A DNA stretch of 54,624 nucleotides from Patescibacteria group bacterium (GTDB lineage Bacteria > Patescibacteriota > Minisyncoccia > Phycocordibacterales > UBA9973), in the NCBI GenBank assembly GCA_040384365.1, contig JAZKJK010000014.1, positions 1-54,624 of the forward strand. The letters are read 5' to 3'. Made by a program: the position numbers and the translations under genes. This document shows positions 12,739 to 52,122 of this stretch, in pieces. The notes beneath the pieces are model-generated. The model made no database searches. It saw only the letters and a list, made by a program, of their open reading frames with translations, and was not told where the DNA came from. The number at the start of each line of letters is the position of its first letter. The stretch's first letter is position 1.

Positions 12739-13399
12739 ATGTCAAAGTGTCTCTTTGACATCATAAATTAGTGTTTGTTTTACAAAGTTTTTAACATCAC
12801 CGAAAGTTTCAAGTAAAAGCTCCTTATCTACTATCGGTAGATTTCTTTTTTCTGTATAGTCATTATAACTGCTCCATTTATATTCGCTTGGATCTTTTAC
12901 CAATTTATCTTTTACTGCATTCATATGAATATAAGATGATACCCACATCAACTGTGAGTTATTATCGATAAGTACAGCTTTGAAACAATCTTGAAAAGCA
13001 TGTCCTTCACGATTGTATTTATTGTTTATATATTTAGAATAACTTGAGCAGACTTTTGAGATTAGTTTTGAAATTGATGTATCGCTACATTGCTCGATTA
13101 GTAAATGAAAATGATTTGGCATAAGGCAGAAAGCATTGATTTTGAATTTATTTTTTCCTTCTGATTCAATCCTGATTCTAGAATAGGGCATACTCAATAA
13201 ATTTTCGTTTCTCAATTCTTTTTGATCAAACCCCAGAGCTAAAGCGAGTCTAAAAAGAAAAGCTTTATAATCTTGCTCGTCAAAAAATATTTTTCCTCTA
13301 TGATTACCTCTATTATAAATATGGGCAATTGAACCTCTATTAAATTTTTTGTAATCCCTATTATTCATCTATCCATTATGTCAAAGTGTCTCTTTGACA
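12739..13399 (-). mobile_element. RAYT/IS200-like unit bounded by two identical 22-nt hairpins in direct orientation
   Basis: ATGTCAAAGTGTCTCTTTGACA at 12739-12760 and 13378-13399 flanks the transposase gene. Confidence 0.75.
12742..13368 (-). CDS. REP-associated tyrosine transposase (RAYT, Y1 HUH family)
   Basis: HIYNRG, FCLMPNHFHLL (HUH), YIHMNAVK (catalytic Tyr region), YKWSSY. Confidence 0.9.
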   Translation of the reverse strand: MNNRDYKKFNRGSIAHIYNRGNHRGKIFFDEQDYKAFLFRLALALGFDQKELRNENLLSMPYSRIRIESEGKNKFKINAFCLMPNHFHLLIEQCSDTSISKLISKVCSSYSKYINNKYNREGHAFQDCFKAVLIDNNSQLMWVSSYIHMNAVKDKLVKDPSEYKWSSYNDYTEKRNLPIVDKELLLETFGDVKNFVKQTLIYDVKETL

Positions 13400-13459
13400 G
13401 CAAGGGTTTTTGTTAATAACTTCAATGCAAACTAGGTTTTTTAATACTATAATGTATAA

Positions 13460-13975
13460 ATGTTCACTGACCCCATAAAAAATTTAAAAGCTTTGGGACT
13501 GAGGGAAAATAATATTGTGGCGGATTTAGGAGCAGGCACTGGATTCTATTCTGTGGCCGCGGGTCACCTCGTGCGCAGCGGTAAAGTCTACGCAGTGGAA
13601 ATAGTCAAAGATTTTTTGGTGACTATCAAAAATAAAGTCAAAGAAGCACGACTACACAATGTAGAAATACTCTGGGGCAATATTGAAAAACTCGGTGGGA
13701 CGGGAATAGGGGATAATATCATTGATGCAGTTATAGCTTCCAATGTCCTCTTTCAAGTCGGCGACAAAGAGAATTTTATTCTTGAAATAAAAAGAATATT
13801 AAAATCCAAGGGTAGGGTGTTGTTAATCGATTGGTCAGCGCCATCGATCATGGGCGCAAAATCCATCATCCCTAAAAACAAAGCTCGCGAGATGTTTGAG
13901 AAAAAAGGTTTTATCCTGGAGCGAGAGATTGATGCAGGCGGGCATCATTATGGTATGATATTAATCAAGGTTTAG
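13460..13975 (+). CDS. Class I SAM-dependent methyltransferase
   Basis: VADLGAGTG, VYAVE, EIKRILKSKGRVLLIDW. Confidence 0.9.
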   Translation: MFTDPIKNLKALGLRENNIVADLGAGTGFYSVAAGHLVRSGKVYAVEIVKDFLVTIKNKVKEARLHNVEILWGNIEKLGGTGIGDNIIDAVIASNVLFQVGDKENFILEIKRILKSKGRVLLIDWSAPSIMGAKSIIPKNKAREMFEKKGFILEREIDAGGHHYGMILIKV

Positions 13976-13978
13976 AAC

Positions 13979-15274
13979 ATGAAAGGAAATTTTCAAATTA
14001 TAATTATAGTTGTATTTATTGCCCTAGCCGTTTTAGGTGTTCTAGTTTTTTCTGGAGCCATACCGATCGGGGGTGATCAAAGCGCCGGAGGTCAGGGCAC
14101 GGTGGTTTTGTGGGGGACAGTGAGCCAGGGGGCAATGTTCCCACTCATAGAGGAATTCAATAATGCCAATCCGACTTTTATTTTGAAGTATGTACAAAAA
14201 TCGCAAGATACCTTCGATCAAGACCTTTTGGAAGCATTGGCCGAGGGGACAGGACCTGATATGTTTCTGTTGCCTGACACTCTAGCTTTTCACTATGCTA
14301 ATAAAATTTTTACTATTCCATATAGCAATTATTCTCTATCTAAATTCAAGAATAATTTTGCCGGCGCCGGCGAGGTATTTCTGACTTCAAATGGTGTTCT
14401 GGCTTTTCCGTTATCGATTGACCCATTAATGATGTATTACAATCGAAGTATGCTGGACGCCAATGGAGTCGTGTCGCCGCCAGCTTTTTGGGATGATTTG
14501 TCTGCCATTGCTTCAACTTTGACCAAAAAAGACAGTTCCAATAAAATAACAAAGAGCGCGGTGGCCTTGGGGCAATTCTCGAATGTTGTCCATGCCAAAG
14601 ACATCCTAACGACTCTCTTTATGCAGGCGGGAAGCAAGATAGTGAGTGAAAAGGGCGGGACCTTTAGCTCTAGTTTAAACGATAACAACAATCCCGCACA
14701 CAGCCTCGCATCCATTTTAAAGTTCTACACTGACTTTGCCAATCCAAGTCGCGATGTGTATTCTTGGAATAAGTCTTTTCCAAATTCAGATGACGCTTTC
14801 TCCGCTGAAAATCTAACATTTTATTTTGGATTTGCTGGAGAGCTCTCATCACTCATCAATAGGAATCCAAATCAAAACTTGGGAGTGGCGCCTATACCCG
14901 AGATCAAGGGTTCTAATTTCAAATTAACCGGCGCGCATGTCATGGGGGTAGCGATATTGTCTTCTTCAAAAAATTTCAATACGGCCTTTACCGCAGCTGG
15001 GCTATTGTCTAGTGGGAACTTTGCTTCTAGATTTGCTACGGCGACAGGCGTGGCTCCAGCGCGTCGAGACTTGCTCAAGACCAAACCAGTGGATGCATAC
15101 TCTTCATTCTTTTATGATTCCGCGCTTTATGCAAAGAGTTGGCTAGACCCATCGGAACCCGACACAAACAATATTTTCCGCAATATGGTCGAAAGTGTGC
15201 TGTCTAACAACATGACTGTAGAAAACGCTATATCAGATGCAAATAGCAAGCTCGGTCTTTTATTATTAAAATAA
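13979..15274 (+). CDS. Membrane-anchored extracellular solute-binding protein (family 1, sugar-binding type)
   Basis: N-terminal TM, ALAEGTGPDMF, PLSIDPLMMYYNRSML; no adjacent ABC permease or ATPase. Confidence 0.8.
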   Translation: MKGNFQIIIIVVFIALAVLGVLVFSGAIPIGGDQSAGGQGTVVLWGTVSQGAMFPLIEEFNNANPTFILKYVQKSQDTFDQDLLEALAEGTGPDMFLLPDTLAFHYANKIFTIPYSNYSLSKFKNNFAGAGEVFLTSNGVLAFPLSIDPLMMYYNRSMLDANGVVSPPAFWDDLSAIASTLTKKDSSNKITKSAVALGQFSNVVHAKDILTTLFMQAGSKIVSEKGGTFSSSLNDNNNPAHSLASILKFYTDFANPSRDVYSWNKSFPNSDDAFSAENLTFYFGFAGELSSLINRNPNQNLGVAPIPEIKGSNFKLTGAHVMGVAILSSSKNFNTAFTAAGLLSSGNFASRFATATGVAPARRDLLKTKPVDAYSSFFYDSALYAKSWLDPSEPDTNNIFRNMVESVLSNNMTVENAISDANSKLGLLLLK

Positions 15275-15276
15275 AT

Positions 15277-16239
15277 TTGATGATCAAAAAAAGTAAAATT
15301 TTAATCTCTCTCTCAATATTTCTAATGCTTGCCACCTCTTCATTTTCCTTTGCGCAAGATGCAATAAGGATTGTCGCTGGTTCGGTGTCAGGAGATGGCC
15401 TTGATCTCCTCACTGTATATATTTCAAACAGTAATCCGAGAAGTTTGGAACTTGTCGCAAAATATGGCGAGGATTATAGTTTTGAGCTGACAAGTAACAC
15501 AATTTCTTTTAATGATGCGGGTCGTGGCACAGCTACACTATCCACTATCAGCAGATCTGGGGAAACTTTTCAATACCGACTCGTCGACAAGAAGGGAGTC
15601 TTGCTCCCAAGTGAAATATATTCATTTACTTCCGTTCCTGTTCCTAATTCTTCTGGTGGATATTCAGACTACAGATCTTATCCAGTTTCCAATACCTCAA
15701 CTAACCCAAATAGTCCTAGCTATACCACCTCCTCTACCCCCATTCCTAAGGATCCAAATACTTCGACTACCACTAGCAACTCCAATTCCACAACTACTTC
15801 TGCCAATCCCAATGCTGTTACTTTAGGAGGGAATTCACCATCTTTACCACCTAGTAGCGCATCTAGCTCTGCCTCTACTTCAAATTCAACTTCTAATAAC
15901 ACGAATGATGGTAAAGGCTTAGTTCCTTGTGACAATACGCCAGATGATAAGGGTGTCATAGCTAAACCTTGTGACTTTAATGCATTTATGAAACTCATAA
16001 ATACAGTCATTCATTTTGTGCTTTTTAGTTTAGCTATTCCCATTGCCGCCATCATGTTCTTCTATGCTGGTTTTCTGATGGTCACTTCTGGGGGTAGCGC
16101 CGAGGCTAAGAGTAAGGCGAAAAATATATTTTCTAATGCTGTCTATGGTCTCGTCATTGCCGCAGGCGCTTGGCTCATTATCAGGACTATACTATCCATA
16201 TTGGGCTATAACGGCTCTTGGATAGGTTTTACTATATAG
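15277..16239 (+). CDS. Pilin-domain protein (VirB2/TrbC-like C-terminus) with N-terminal domain and Ser/Thr/Asn/Pro linker
   Basis: Signal peptide, GLVPC...C pair, then TM-YAGFLMVTSGG..KSKAK..NAVYGL-TM. Confidence 0.75.
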   Translation: MMIKKSKILISLSIFLMLATSSFSFAQDAIRIVAGSVSGDGLDLLTVYISNSNPRSLELVAKYGEDYSFELTSNTISFNDAGRGTATLSTISRSGETFQYRLVDKKGVLLPSEIYSFTSVPVPNSSGGYSDYRSYPVSNTSTNPNSPSYTTSSTPIPKDPNTSTTTSNSNSTTTSANPNAVTLGGNSPSLPPSSASSSASTSNSTSNNTNDGKGLVPCDNTPDDKGVIAKPCDFNAFMKLINTVIHFVLFSLAIPIAAIMFFYAGFLMVTSGGSAEAKSKAKNIFSNAVYGLVIAAGAWLIIRTILSILGYNGSWIGFTI

Positions 16240-51455: not shown

Positions 51456-51464
51456 CTAGCAAGT

Positions 51465-51488
51465 AACTAGCAAGAACCGTTCTTGCTA
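51465..51488. repeat. 24-nt hairpin direct repeat flanking fic, copy 1
   Basis: AACTAGCAAGAACCGTTCTTGCTA; preceded by an 11-nt tandem duplication TAACTAGCAAG (51453-51474). Confidence 0.8.
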
Positions 51489-51535
51489 CATGATAGTTTT
51501 TTAGAGTTAGCTAAAAATTATGGTATAATGAGGAC

Positions 51536-52090
51536 ATGCAGAATCAAAATGTTGACGAAATCAGTAAGGAACGAGCCAAGAAACTTTTTGGTAGTAATGA
51601 AATAAAAAGTTTTGAAACGGGTACAATCAAGGGTCTACAGCAGATCCACAAATACTTGTTTGGGGAGCTTTATGATTTCGCTGGTCAGATCCGCGTTAAG
51701 GATATAAGCAAAGGCGGATTTCGATTCGCTTCCCACTTATATCTGGAAGAAAGTTTGAATAAAATCGGAGAAATGCCGGAAAATACTTTTGAAGAAATTG
51801 TGGCCAAATATGTGGAGATGAATGTCGCTCATCCATTTATGGAGGGCAATGGTCGGAGTATGAGAATTTGGCTGGATTTAATTTTTAAAAAAAATCTCAA
51901 ACAGTGTGTGAATTGGGCGAAGATCGACAAAGCTGACTATTTAAATGCCATGGAGCGTAGCCCTGTGAACGCCATCGAAATTCGCGAGCTTTTGCGTTCC
52001 GCTTTGACCAATAAAATTGATGACCGTGAAGTTTTCATGAAGGGTGTAGAGCAGTCGTATTATTACGAAGAGGAGGATTTTTATAAATAA
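51536..52090 (+). CDS. fic: Class III Fic protein adenylyltransferase (NmFic-like)
   Basis: Canonical [13 protein letters not shown]-terminal inhibitory helix SYYYE. Confidence 0.92.
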
Positions 52091-52096
52091 TAAAGA

Positions 52097-52122
52097 AACT
52101 AGCAAGAAACGTTCTTGCTAGT
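52097..52122. repeat. Hairpin direct repeat flanking fic, copy 2
   Basis: AACTAGCAAGAAACGTTCTTGCTAGT; 23/24 identical to copy 1; 6 nt after the stop. Confidence 0.8.

What the first reader, a model, noticed from the sequence alone, without database searches (positions are those of the whole stretch)
12739..52122. Candidate system: RAYT/REP-type hairpin-bounded single-gene cassettes
Seen: accessory genes sit between two near-identical 20-24-nt hairpins in direct orientation, one beside the promoter and one at or near the stop codon. This holds for RAYT (12739/13378), Fic (51465/52097), ArsR (34512/34845) and a DUF1428 pair (29559/30255). The RAYT, Fic and infB hairpins share an AARR-N5-YYTT core: CAAAG-tgtct-CTTTG, CAAGA-accgt-TCTTG and AAAGG-accgt-CCTTG. 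The Fic and infB cores differ by a compensatory pair (A-T versus G-C) around the same ACCGT loop. Known: Y1 HUH enzymes (IS200/IS605 TnpA, RAYT) recognise ssDNA hairpins, and RAYTs are flanked by REPs. Inference: these hairpins are ends of minimal cassettes in which the RAYT gene has been replaced by cargo and which RAYTs mobilise in trans. That would make them a gene-shuffling system for a reduced genome, rather than only selfish REP repeats.
Basis: partly seen in the sequence, partly recalled or inferred. Interest (0 to 1): 0.8.

Follow-up and report, generated by a model that had tools for sequence, protein, structure and literature searches.

The report
Mixed hairpin pairs, not one cassette system
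The matching hairpins around four genes are real, but they are three unrelated things (transposase-linked REP repeats, a repressor's binding sites and a copied terminator), and nothing shows that they move the enclosed genes.

Summary
All four hairpin pairs sit at the stated coordinates and exceed chance: 8 same-family pairs within 3 kb genome-wide against 0 in 10 Markov nulls. They are not one system.

- **RAYT pair:** a REP-associated tyrosine transposase with its own REPs. It lies between gyrA and a methyltransferase in at least 6 genomes of the genus. 13 of 15 evaluable RAYT loci carry such a pair, 6 direct and 7 inverted.
- **Fic pair:** REPs of a second family. The same 21-mer flanks a different RAYT in relatives, and the core occurs in 54 of 151 genus genomes. 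Fic lies at the same gap–rpiB locus in four relatives. Three of them have no hairpin and one has only an upstream hairpin.
- **ArsR pair:** an ATTCG-NN-CGAAT palindrome flanks arsR in 24 of 26 orthologous loci, so it is operator-like.
- **DUF1428 pair:** a copied intrinsic terminator.
- **infB hairpins:** these lie inside the coding sequence.

REP-bracketed small genes beside RAYTs do recur, and one REP-bounded gene presence/absence difference exists. Trans-mobilisation is therefore not excluded, but no cargo was found moved together with its hairpins.

The parts
12739..12761 (.). REP1 copy A (stem TGTCAAAG, loop TGTCT). It starts 3 nt after the gyrA stop, and the RAYT stop codon and last five codons (VKETL*) are encoded inside it.
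12742..13368 (-). RAYT-1, a 208-aa Y1 HUH transposase-like protein with the HFH motif and YIHMN
   Evidence: Pfam Y1_Tnp 49 bits. NCBIfam REP_Tyr_transpos 68.3 bits, below its 80-bit cut-off, against IS200 20.9 bits. A family profile hits only E. coli TnpArep 4ER8 in the PDB, E 1.9e-5.
13378..13399 (.). REP1 copy B, 10 nt upstream of the RAYT start codon, in the same orientation as copy A
22483..22523 (.). Two inverted AAGGAC(G/C)GTCCTT palindromes inside the infB coding sequence (residues 285-298, a variable linker). They resemble the REP-B core.
29559..29582 (+). Terminator-type hairpin (GACCCAC-GAAA-GTGGGT followed by a T run), upstream copy. No plus-strand gene ends here.
29586..29650 (+). 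Conserved leader-like element (GGTATACT, then a CCCC/GGGG hairpin) upstream of DUF1428. It is also upstream of DUF1428 in G112 and follows the same terminator in G159.
29669..30235 (+). DUF1428 gene (29669-30049) plus a 54-aa membrane ORF (30071-30235)
30255..30278 (+). Terminator-type hairpin, downstream copy, called as an intrinsic terminator
34512..34535 (.). ArsR palindrome 1 (core ATTCGTGCGAAT), 39 nt upstream of the arsR start, beside a TAGAAT -10-like box
34556..34816 (+). 86-aa ArsR/SmtB-type winged-helix regulator
34845..34868 (.). ArsR palindrome 2, 34 nt after the arsR stop and upstream of the Ser_hydrolase-msrA genes
51455..51488 (.). REP-B copy A (TAGCAAGAACCGTTCTTGCTA), preceded by a tandem partial copy of its 5' arm. 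It begins at the stop codon of the 113-aa ORF.
51536..52090 (+). Fic (NmFic-type protein adenylyltransferase, 184 aa) with its own TGGTATAAT promoter box
52097..52121 (.). REP-B copy B (loop AAC instead of ACC), 10 nt after the Fic stop

Best explanation
The window holds three unrelated kinds of short palindrome, and each happens to occur as a pair around one gene.

(1) REP/RAYT systems. This small genome has three RAYT genes, each embedded in its own low-copy REP family.
- RAYT-1 (12742-13368) is a resident gene between gyrA and a methyltransferase.
- One of its REPs sits in the 5' leader. The other encodes the last codons and the stop.
- The Fic hairpins are REPs of a further family, REP-B. 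In related genomes REP-B flanks its own RAYT. Here it has no cognate RAYT in the assembly.
- Inferred: REPs are copied by RAYTs, preferentially into spacers near existing copies. They therefore end up on both sides of whatever gene is there, and Fic is a bystander.

(2) The ArsR palindromes are binding sites of the enclosed repressor. One lies at its own promoter and one before the next gene. This is inferred from conservation, not from a binding test.

(3) The DUF1428 pair is an intrinsic terminator present twice. The most likely cause is recombination within the hairpin when the DUF1428 module arrived (inferred).

Direct REP pairs may promote loss or gain of the enclosed gene by recombination, but this is not a dedicated cassette machinery.
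For: RAYT
- It has the Y1 HUH family match, and its family profile hits only TnpArep 4ER8 in the PDB.
- G000 has 3 RAYT genes, each with a different flanking hairpin.
- RAYT-1 orthologues lie between gyrA and the methyltransferase in G111, G091, G159, G163 and G136.
- 13 of 15 evaluable RAYT loci carry a flanking pair. The loops match within a genome and differ between genomes. 6 pairs are direct and 7 inverted.
- Nunvar et al. 2010 (PMC2817692; abstract and passages read) describe RAYTs flanked by co-evolving REPs and preferential formation of new REPs near rayt genes.

Fic
- An identical 21-mer occurs 6 times upstream of a RAYT in G007, with a variant downstream.
- The core GCAAGRACSGTYCTTGC occurs in 54 of 151 genus genomes at 1-13 copies. 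The reversed-pattern control gave 0.
- In 8 of 16 fetched REP-B regions the pair encloses a RAYT. In the other 8 it encloses other genes, including housekeeping ones such as NTPase_I-T, or lies inside a purH ORF.
- The order gap-Fic-rpiB holds with no hairpin in G081, G091 and G159, and with an upstream hairpin only in G144.

ArsR
- The palindrome is on both sides in 24 of 26 loci.
- G000 has only these 2 copies.
- Extra copies beside neighbouring genes occur in L074, L081, L089, L098 and L099.
- A second ArsR paralogue has its own flanking 21-nt repeat.
- A PaaX-like regulator on contig C8 shows the same layout.

DUF1428
- The hairpin scores as a terminator.
- It is found in 3 of 151 genomes, singly outside G000.
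- DUF1428 orthologues lie in other contexts without this hairpin.
Against: - Two of the 5 REP-B copies in 687 kb lie 632 bp apart around one gene, with no RAYT-B nearby. Local copying is an assumption, and no cognate enzyme is seen here. The assembly is 94.8% complete, so one may be unassembled.
- Related hairpins lie upstream of Fic in G144 and G111. The REP-Fic link may therefore be older than G000.
- Fic nucleotide identity to relatives (77-83%) exceeds that of the flanking gap (70-74%) and rpiB (71-77%). Fic is patchy, with close orthologues in 5 of 150 other genomes. The GAPDH tree does not resolve whether the carriers form a clade. Repeated gain at one site is not excluded.
- ORF106 beside RAYT-1 is present with REPs on both sides in G091 and G163. 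It is absent, with a single REP left, in G000 and G111. That is what a REP-bounded cassette would leave.
- In about half of the arsR loci the next gene is convergent. The downstream palindrome cannot always be an operator of that gene.
- No binding, cleavage or transcript data exist for any of this.
Confidence: 0.65

Rival explanations
1. REP-gene-REP units are cassettes that RAYTs excise and insert as single-stranded circles at other REPs, giving an integron-like platform beside RAYT genes.
For: - REP-gene-REP-RAYT-REP arrangements recur: ORF106 in G091 and G163, a DUF3147 gene on G000 contig C12, a 164-aa gene in G060 and a HigB-like pair in G136.
- G000 and G111 keep a single REP where ORF106 sits in G091 and G163.
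- The order of Fic and the p101-like small ORF differs between G144 and G081/G000.
- Fic is more conserved than its flanks and is patchy.
Against: - No cargo was found at two different loci with the same REPs. ORF106 is always between gyrA and RAYT (3 of 3 genomes). Fic is at gap-rpiB in G000 and 4 of its 5 close relatives, three of them without REPs.
- Enclosed genes include housekeeping ones, and some REPs lie inside ORFs.
- No cognate RAYT for REP-B is in this assembly.
- REP orientation around RAYTs is direct or inverted about equally. A strict same-strand requirement would not predict that.
Confidence: 0.12
2. Hairpin-bounded units arise by general recombination or replication slippage at any palindrome (REP, operator or terminator), independent of RAYT. 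A circle carrying one hairpin recombines with a chromosomal copy, which leaves direct hairpin repeats. The reverse event deletes the gene.
For: - In the DUF1428 unit the repeat ends exactly at the hairpin plus its T run. The flanks of the two copies read like a circular permutation of the single G159 site.
- The DUF1428 module occurs in other contexts elsewhere.
- The ORF106 presence/absence difference is bounded by REPs.
Against: - 21-24 nt of homology is very short for homologous recombination.
- This does not explain why 24 of 26 arsR loci keep both palindromes.
- No empty DUF1428 site with one hairpin was found at the same locus in a close relative. The tRNA-Asn loci of the five relatives searched differ.
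Confidence: 0.13
3. All pairs are functional insulators. An upstream hairpin stops read-through into a dose-sensitive gene (transposase, Fic, repressor), a downstream hairpin terminates it, and gene conversion keeps the two alike.
For: - Most copies begin within 3-13 nt of a stop codon.
- All fold stably.
- The enclosed genes are plausibly dose-sensitive.
Against: - Only the DUF1428 hairpin has a T run.
- The upstream DUF1428 copy follows no plus-strand gene.
- Fic orthologues in G081, G091 and G159 lack the hairpins.
- REP-B copies cluster six-fold beside a RAYT in G007, which insulation does not need.
Confidence: 0.08

Closest known systems
REP/RAYT systems (Nunvar et al. 2010, PMC2817692; REPIN/RAYT work of Bertels and Rainey, PMC3116915 and PMC3337134, of which only the listing and abstract starts were seen)
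   Same: A Y1 HUH protein nearer to TnpArep than to IS200. The gene is flanked by its own palindromes. REP and RAYT change together between species. The gene keeps a fixed chromosomal position. Extra REPs lie close to the rayt gene.
   Different: Copy number is very low, 2-5 per family in G000 and at most 13 in the genus, against the more than 100 described. Stems are short perfect palindromes, and I saw no GT(A/G)G head in the flanks. Flanking copies are direct as often as inverted. Several RAYT families share a genome of 0.4-1.0 Mb. One REP overlaps the RAYT stop codon.
IS200/IS605 insertion sequences and their gene-less derivatives (PATEs; recalled, not read here)
   Same: Hairpins at both ends on the same strand around a Y1 transposase gene, as in the direct arrangement in G000.
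   Different: The gene is single-copy and stays at one locus across species. The IS200 model scores 20.9 bits against a 55-bit cut-off. No second copy of the unit exists in the genome.
Integron gene cassettes with attC hairpins (recalled)
   Same: Small promoter-poor or self-promoted accessory genes separated by folded recombination sites next to the recombinase gene. This is the layout of the REP-gene-REP-RAYT-REP loci.
   Different: There is no tyrosine-recombinase integrase. The hairpins on both sides of a gene are the same sequence, whereas each attC belongs to its own cassette. Movement is not shown.
ArsR/SmtB repressors with inverted-repeat operators (family knowledge, recalled)
   Same: A small winged-helix protein with an x-2-x palindrome beside its own promoter and before the neighbouring genes, here Ser_hydrolase-msrA.
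   Different: A second copy after the gene is kept even where the next gene is convergent. Binding was not tested.
Intrinsic (Rho-independent) terminators
   Same: The DUF1428 hairpin has a GC-rich 7-bp stem, a GAAA loop and a T run.
   Different: An identical copy also stands upstream of the unit, where no gene on that strand ends.

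Membership tests
RAYT (REP-associated tyrosine transposase) | Y1 HUH nuclease domain with the HUH motif and a catalytic Tyr motif | tested here: met
   Pfam Y1_Tnp 49 bits. N85-H86-F87-H88 and Y146-I147-H148 are invariant across 16 genus RAYTs and align with TnpArep 4ER8.
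RAYT (REP-associated tyrosine transposase) | Closer to RAYT than to IS200 transposases | tested here: inconclusive
   NCBIfam REP_Tyr_transpos scores 68.3 bits, below its 80-bit cut-off. IS200 scores 20.9 bits against a 55-bit cut-off. The profile's only significant PDB hit is TnpArep, E 1.9e-5. The single sequence hits nothing in the PDB.
RAYT (REP-associated tyrosine transposase) | Gene flanked by two copies of its own palindrome | tested here: met
   13 of 15 evaluable loci in the genus.
RAYT (REP-associated tyrosine transposase) | Flanking REPs in inverted orientation (Nunvar 2010: 'always') | tested here: not met
   The pair in G000 is direct, with the same TGTCT loop in both copies. Across the genus 6 pairs are direct and 7 inverted.
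RAYT (REP-associated tyrosine transposase) | Cognate REPs abundant in the genome (tens to hundreds) | tested here: not met
   REP1 has 3 copies, REP2 has 2 and REP3 has 4 in G000. The draft assembly may under-count repeats.
RAYT (REP-associated tyrosine transposase) | REP and RAYT co-evolve, and the gene keeps its locus | tested here: met
   Loops match within a genome and differ between genomes. The gene lies between gyrA and the methyltransferase in 6 genomes and is absent from that spacer in G081 and G144.
REP family of a RAYT (for the Fic hairpins) | The same palindrome flanks a RAYT gene and is dispersed | tested here: met
   Identical 21-mer beside a RAYT in G007. 8 of 16 fetched pairs enclose a RAYT. 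Found in 54 of 151 genomes. No such RAYT is in the G000 assembly.
IS200/IS605 insertion sequence | Multiple mobile copies and a match to the IS200 transposase model | tested here: not met
   Single copy at a conserved locus. IS200 model 20.9 bits against a 55-bit cut-off.
   - Fic: same locus in G000 and 4 of 5 close relatives, with 0-2 hairpins.
- ORF106: same locus in 3 of 3 genomes, with single-REP sites in G000 and G111.
- DUF1428: other loci, but without the hairpin.
- The one sequencing run available holds contigs only and shows no joint at Fic.
ArsR/SmtB repressor with operator | Winged-helix ArsR domain | tested here: met
   HTH_5 43 bits. NCBIfam HTH_metalloreg 67 bits, above its 55-bit cut-off.
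ArsR/SmtB repressor with operator | Conserved palindrome at the regulator's promoter, bound by the protein | not testable with these tools
   The sequence side is met: 24 of 26 loci. Binding needs an experiment.
Intrinsic terminator | GC-rich stem followed by a T run at a gene's 3' end | tested here: met
   The downstream copy at 30258-30275 is called by the scan. The upstream copy has the same sequence but no gene ends there.

The most novel reading that the evidence does not exclude
In this genus of very small genomes, RAYT genes and their REPs may form integron-like platforms. Small accessory genes (Fic, toxin-antitoxin pairs, kinases, membrane proteins) are bracketed by REPs beside a RAYT and gained, lost or reordered by RAYT-catalysed REP-to-REP joining, with orphan REP pairs such as the one around Fic as the remains.
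Probability: 0.1. Interest if true: 0.8.

Novelty: new variant of a known kind. Interest (0 to 1): 0.35.

Why it matters
REP/RAYT systems are described mainly from proteobacteria with hundreds of REPs.

This genus has genomes of 0.4-1.0 Mb. Y1_Tnp genes occur in 103 of 151 genomes, with up to 11 matches per genome. Each RAYT family examined has only a handful of REPs, in either orientation. REP-like hairpins even lie inside open reading frames.

That is a lean version of the system in which the birth, spread and loss of REPs can be followed copy by copy.

It would matter more if REP pairs proved to drive gene gain and loss in reduced genomes, but that is not shown. The practical lesson is that identical palindromes on both sides of a gene have at least three ordinary causes.

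Tried and rejected
- **Sequencing reads.** Only one run holds the stretch. It is kept as contigs and may be the source sample. No joint lies at the Fic or ArsR hairpins. One low-confidence joint, 34322 to 35477 with a 23-nt side, joins msrB to msrA and probably comes from a relative. This says nothing about excision.
- **GAPDH tree.** It was meant to ask whether Fic carriers form a clade. The relevant part is an unresolved polytomy. G091 was left out because its gap gene is partial.
- **PDB search with RAYT-1 alone.** No hit. A 16-sequence profile was needed.
- **Rfam.** Only tRNAs were found. No family matches the hairpins or the leader-like element.
- **CRISPR reading of the six-fold REP-B cluster in G007.** Rejected: spacing is irregular (49-76 nt), and truncated copies and a RAYT gene lie adjacent.
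- **G018 as an empty site for Fic.** Rejected: its ORF between gap and rpiB is unrelated to the 113-aa ORF.
- **Synteny of the REP3-bracketed DUF3147 gene.** The region upstream of clpP differs in all five relatives searched, so no test was possible.
- **RAYT loci not evaluated.** 14 of the 29 analysed loci gave no ORF with my motif filter.
- **Literature.** No paper in the held library treats RAYT or REPIN together with Patescibacteria or Candidate Phyla Radiation. The only co-occurrences are two versions of a paper on rRNA primer coverage. The assignment of this genome to that radiation is my guess from its size and gene content, not a tool result.
- **Calls that gave nothing.** A second literature search failed on a term format and was not repeated.

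Full report
**Observation**

The window is a whole 54.6-kb contig (C14) of a 687-kb, 18-contig genome with about 40% G+C. All four pairs are at the coordinates given.

- **RAYT:** a 22-nt identical hairpin at 12739 and 13378 flanks a 208-aa Y1_Tnp ORF on the minus strand.
- **Fic:** a 24-nt hairpin with one loop difference, at 51465 and 52097, flanks a 184-aa Fic.
- **ArsR:** a palindrome with a 15-nt identical core, at 34512 and 34845, flanks an 86-aa ArsR.
- **DUF1428:** a 24-nt identical hairpin plus T run, at 29559 and 30255, flanks DUF1428 and a 54-aa ORF.

Gene identities come from Pfam and NCBIfam, and all eight copies fold as hairpins.

I scanned the genome for two like hairpins (perfect stem of at least 7, length of at least 17, at most 2 mismatches) within 3 kb. 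The scan gave 8 pairs, against 0 in each of 10 Markov genomes.

The 'infB hairpins' are different. They are two inverted 13-nt palindromes inside the infB reading frame, in a linker that differs between species.

My ORF calls are naive longest-ORF calls. 'No hairpin' below means no perfect stem of at least 7 bp with a loop of 1-8 nt.

**The RAYT pair is an ordinary RAYT with its REPs, in a lean form**

- **Family.** The protein matches NCBIfam's RAYT model far better than the IS200 model (68.3 against 20.9 bits), although it stays below the 80-bit cut-off. A profile of 16 genus homologues finds only E. coli TnpArep (4ER8) in the PDB, aligned through the HUH and YIxxNP motifs.
- **Three RAYTs.** The genome has three such genes, each with a different flanking palindrome. 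REP1 has 3 copies, REP2 has 2 and REP3 has 4.
- **Fixed locus.** RAYT-1 orthologues lie between gyrA and a methyltransferase in G111, G091, G159, G163 and G136. In G081 and G144 the two genes abut with no REP1 copy between them.
- **Flanking pairs.** I analysed 29 Y1_Tnp loci from the genus, after dropping one locus from an unpublished genome. My motif filter picked an ORF in 15 of them, and 13 of those have a flanking pair. The stem is conserved. The loop is the same, or its reverse complement, within a genome and differs between genomes. 6 pairs are direct and 7 inverted.
- **Overlap with the gene.** The 3' REP encodes the last residues and the stop of the protein, and the variable loop is translated.
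- **Fit to the literature.** Nunvar et al. 2010 (abstract and passages) describe flanking, co-evolving REPs, a fixed locus and new REPs forming near rayt genes. This case differs in orientation and in copy number.

**The Fic hairpins are REPs of another RAYT family**

- **Link to a RAYT.** The identical 21-mer occurs six times in an irregular cluster directly upstream of a 226-aa RAYT in G007, with a GGACCGTCC variant just after that gene.
- **Spread.** The core GCAAGRACSGTYCTTGC is present in 54 of 151 genus genomes at 1-13 copies. The reversed control pattern gave 0.
- **What the pairs enclose.** I picked 16 regions from that list as close pairs. In 8 the pair encloses a RAYT. The other 8 hold a P-loop kinase, a pilin, an NTPase_I-T, a subtilase, a HigB-like pair or small unknown ORFs, or the pair lies inside a purH ORF.
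- **Copies in G000.** There are five copies: two around Fic and three after or between other genes on C4, C1 and C15. No RAYT flanked by them is in the assembly, which is 94.8% complete.

**Fic itself is not shown to move**

- **Distribution.** Close orthologues (81-87% amino-acid identity) were found in 5 of 150 other genomes.
- **Locus.** Most relatives have gap directly followed by rpiB. In G081, G091 and G159, Fic with its conserved TGGTATAAT box sits between gap and rpiB with no hairpin on either side. G159 also carries two extra ORFs between Fic and rpiB. G144 has a related hairpin upstream only. G111 has other neighbours and a related hairpin about 340 nt upstream.
- **Conclusion.** The gene is at that locus with two, one or no REPs, so the REPs are not needed for its presence there.
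- **Results that point the other way.** Fic is more conserved at the DNA level (77-83%) than gap (70-74%) or rpiB (71-77%). The carriers are not shown to be a clade. The order of Fic and a small membrane ORF differs between G144 and G081/G000.

**The ArsR palindrome behaves as an operator**

- **Conservation.** Of 27 arsR loci fetched from the genus, 26 could be evaluated, and 24 have ATTCG-NN-CGAAT (at most 1 mismatch) on both sides of the gene. This holds across protein identities of 51-83%.
- **Neighbours.** The neighbouring genes vary widely. In 5 loci, including G000, they are Ser_hydrolase, msrA or msrB genes. Elsewhere they include PLD, peptidase S49, APH and acylphosphatase genes.
- **Copy number.** G000 has only these two copies. 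Some relatives have further copies beside adjacent genes.
- **Same layout elsewhere.** A second ArsR paralogue on C1 is flanked by its own 21-nt repeat containing an inverted repeat. A PaaX-like regulator on C8 is flanked by a 30-nt palindrome with compensatory changes, and a third copy of that palindrome lies on C18.
- **Unexplained.** The downstream copy is kept even where the next gene is convergent.

**The DUF1428 hairpin is an intrinsic terminator present twice**

- It has a GC stem, a GAAA loop and a T run. Among 151 genomes it occurs only in G000 (twice), G159 and G015 (once each).
- In G159 it lies near tRNA-Asn and is followed by the same leader-like element that precedes DUF1428 in G000.
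- DUF1428 is patchy (18 of 151) and lies in other contexts without this hairpin. In G112 it keeps the leader element and the small membrane ORF.
- The structure fits a module joined in by recombination within the hairpin, but no empty site was found.

**What remains of the cassette idea**

- **Recurring layout.** REP-gene-REP-RAYT-REP arrangements recur: ORF106 in G091 and G163, a DUF3147 gene on C12 of G000, a 164-aa gene in G060 and a HigB-like pair in G136.
- **One bounded difference.** At the gyrA locus, G091 and G163 have REP-ORF106-REP. G136 has ORF106 with a REP on one side only. G000 and G111 have a single REP and no ORF106. This is a REP-bounded presence/absence difference, and its direction is unknown.
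- **No movement seen.** ORF106 was found only at this locus (3 of 151 genomes).
- **Reading.** REPs spread into spacers near RAYTs, and direct repeats may then favour deletions. A dedicated RAYT-driven gene-capture system is possible but unsupported.

**Verdict**

- The single-system interpretation is not.
- What is there is a low-copy variant of the known REP/RAYT kind, a repressor with its sites and a duplicated terminator.

The tallies include genomes flagged as unpublished (G075, G146, G138). No locus-level claim here rests on them.

Noticed in passing
window 29586-29650; L041 (G159 C3) about 1185-1260; L057 (G112) about 1369-1440: A conserved element after the terminator hairpin: a GGTATACT box, then a hairpin that reads CCCC/GGGG in G000 and TTCC/GGAA in G159 and G112 (two compensatory pairs). 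It precedes DUF1428 in two genomes and a sigma-like gene in G159. It may be a leader or a small RNA. Rfam has no match.
   Followed up: partly
window 22483-22523 (inside infB, minus strand): Two inverted REP-B-like palindromes 27 nt apart encode KDGPLG..KDRPLG in a linker of IF-2 that differs in G144 and G159. This looks like an in-frame REP doublet inside an essential gene.
   Followed up: partly
G000 C10:6876-7724 (L182); G007 C4 (L104); G140 C14 (L165): REP1, REP-B and CCCTCC-type hairpins lie inside long ORFs: ksgA in G000 and G007, purH in G140. In G000 KsgA, Pfam RrnaAD matches only residues 3-191 of 282, and the hairpins fall in the remainder.
   Followed up: partly
G000 C8:24094 and 24484 (L180); C1:9704; also seen in G111, G091, G144 and G007 loci: A further dispersed hairpin family, CCCTCTCCTT-N3-AAGGAGAGGG. 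In G000 a pair of it flanks a DUF559 (Vsr-like endonuclease) gene. A related hairpin fills the gyrA-methyltransferase spacer of G144.
   Followed up: no
window 51455-51467 and G000 C15:2750-2760: Both REP-B copies that begin at a stop codon are preceded by a tandem partial copy of their own 5' arm, and each partial copy matches its own stem variant (CTAGCAAG or CTCGCAAG). Truncated-plus-full copies also occur in the G007 cluster. This could be an alternative pairing partner or a trace of how REPs are copied.
   Followed up: no
window 52155-52460; L002 (G018); L014 (G081); L016 (G144): A family of small membrane ORFs (start MKQKRYWLRG, end GW-YGKIKNRNK) has several paralogues around gap and rpiB. 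G081 keeps only a remnant with an internal deletion after Fic.
   Followed up: partly
window 2340-6383 and 15277-18020: Three Mur-ligase paralogues lie in tandem with shared motifs at matching positions. Five consecutive small T4SS-pilin-domain ORFs follow further on.
   Followed up: no
window 20873-21355 (minus strand): A 160-aa HNH endonuclease ORF sits between a three-tRNA cluster and tRNA-Cys.
   Followed up: no
genus-wide: Y1_Tnp genes occur in 103 of 151 genomes of 0.4-1.0 Mb, with up to 10-11 matches in one genome. That is many RAYT-like genes for genomes of this size. The genome with 11 matches has 9% contamination.
   Followed up: partly
window 34322 to 35477: One contig of the only run that holds this DNA joins msrB to msrA and skips arsR and the hydrolase gene. 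The shorter side is only 23 nt, so it probably comes from a related organism. G159 has msrB and msrA adjacent.
   Followed up: no
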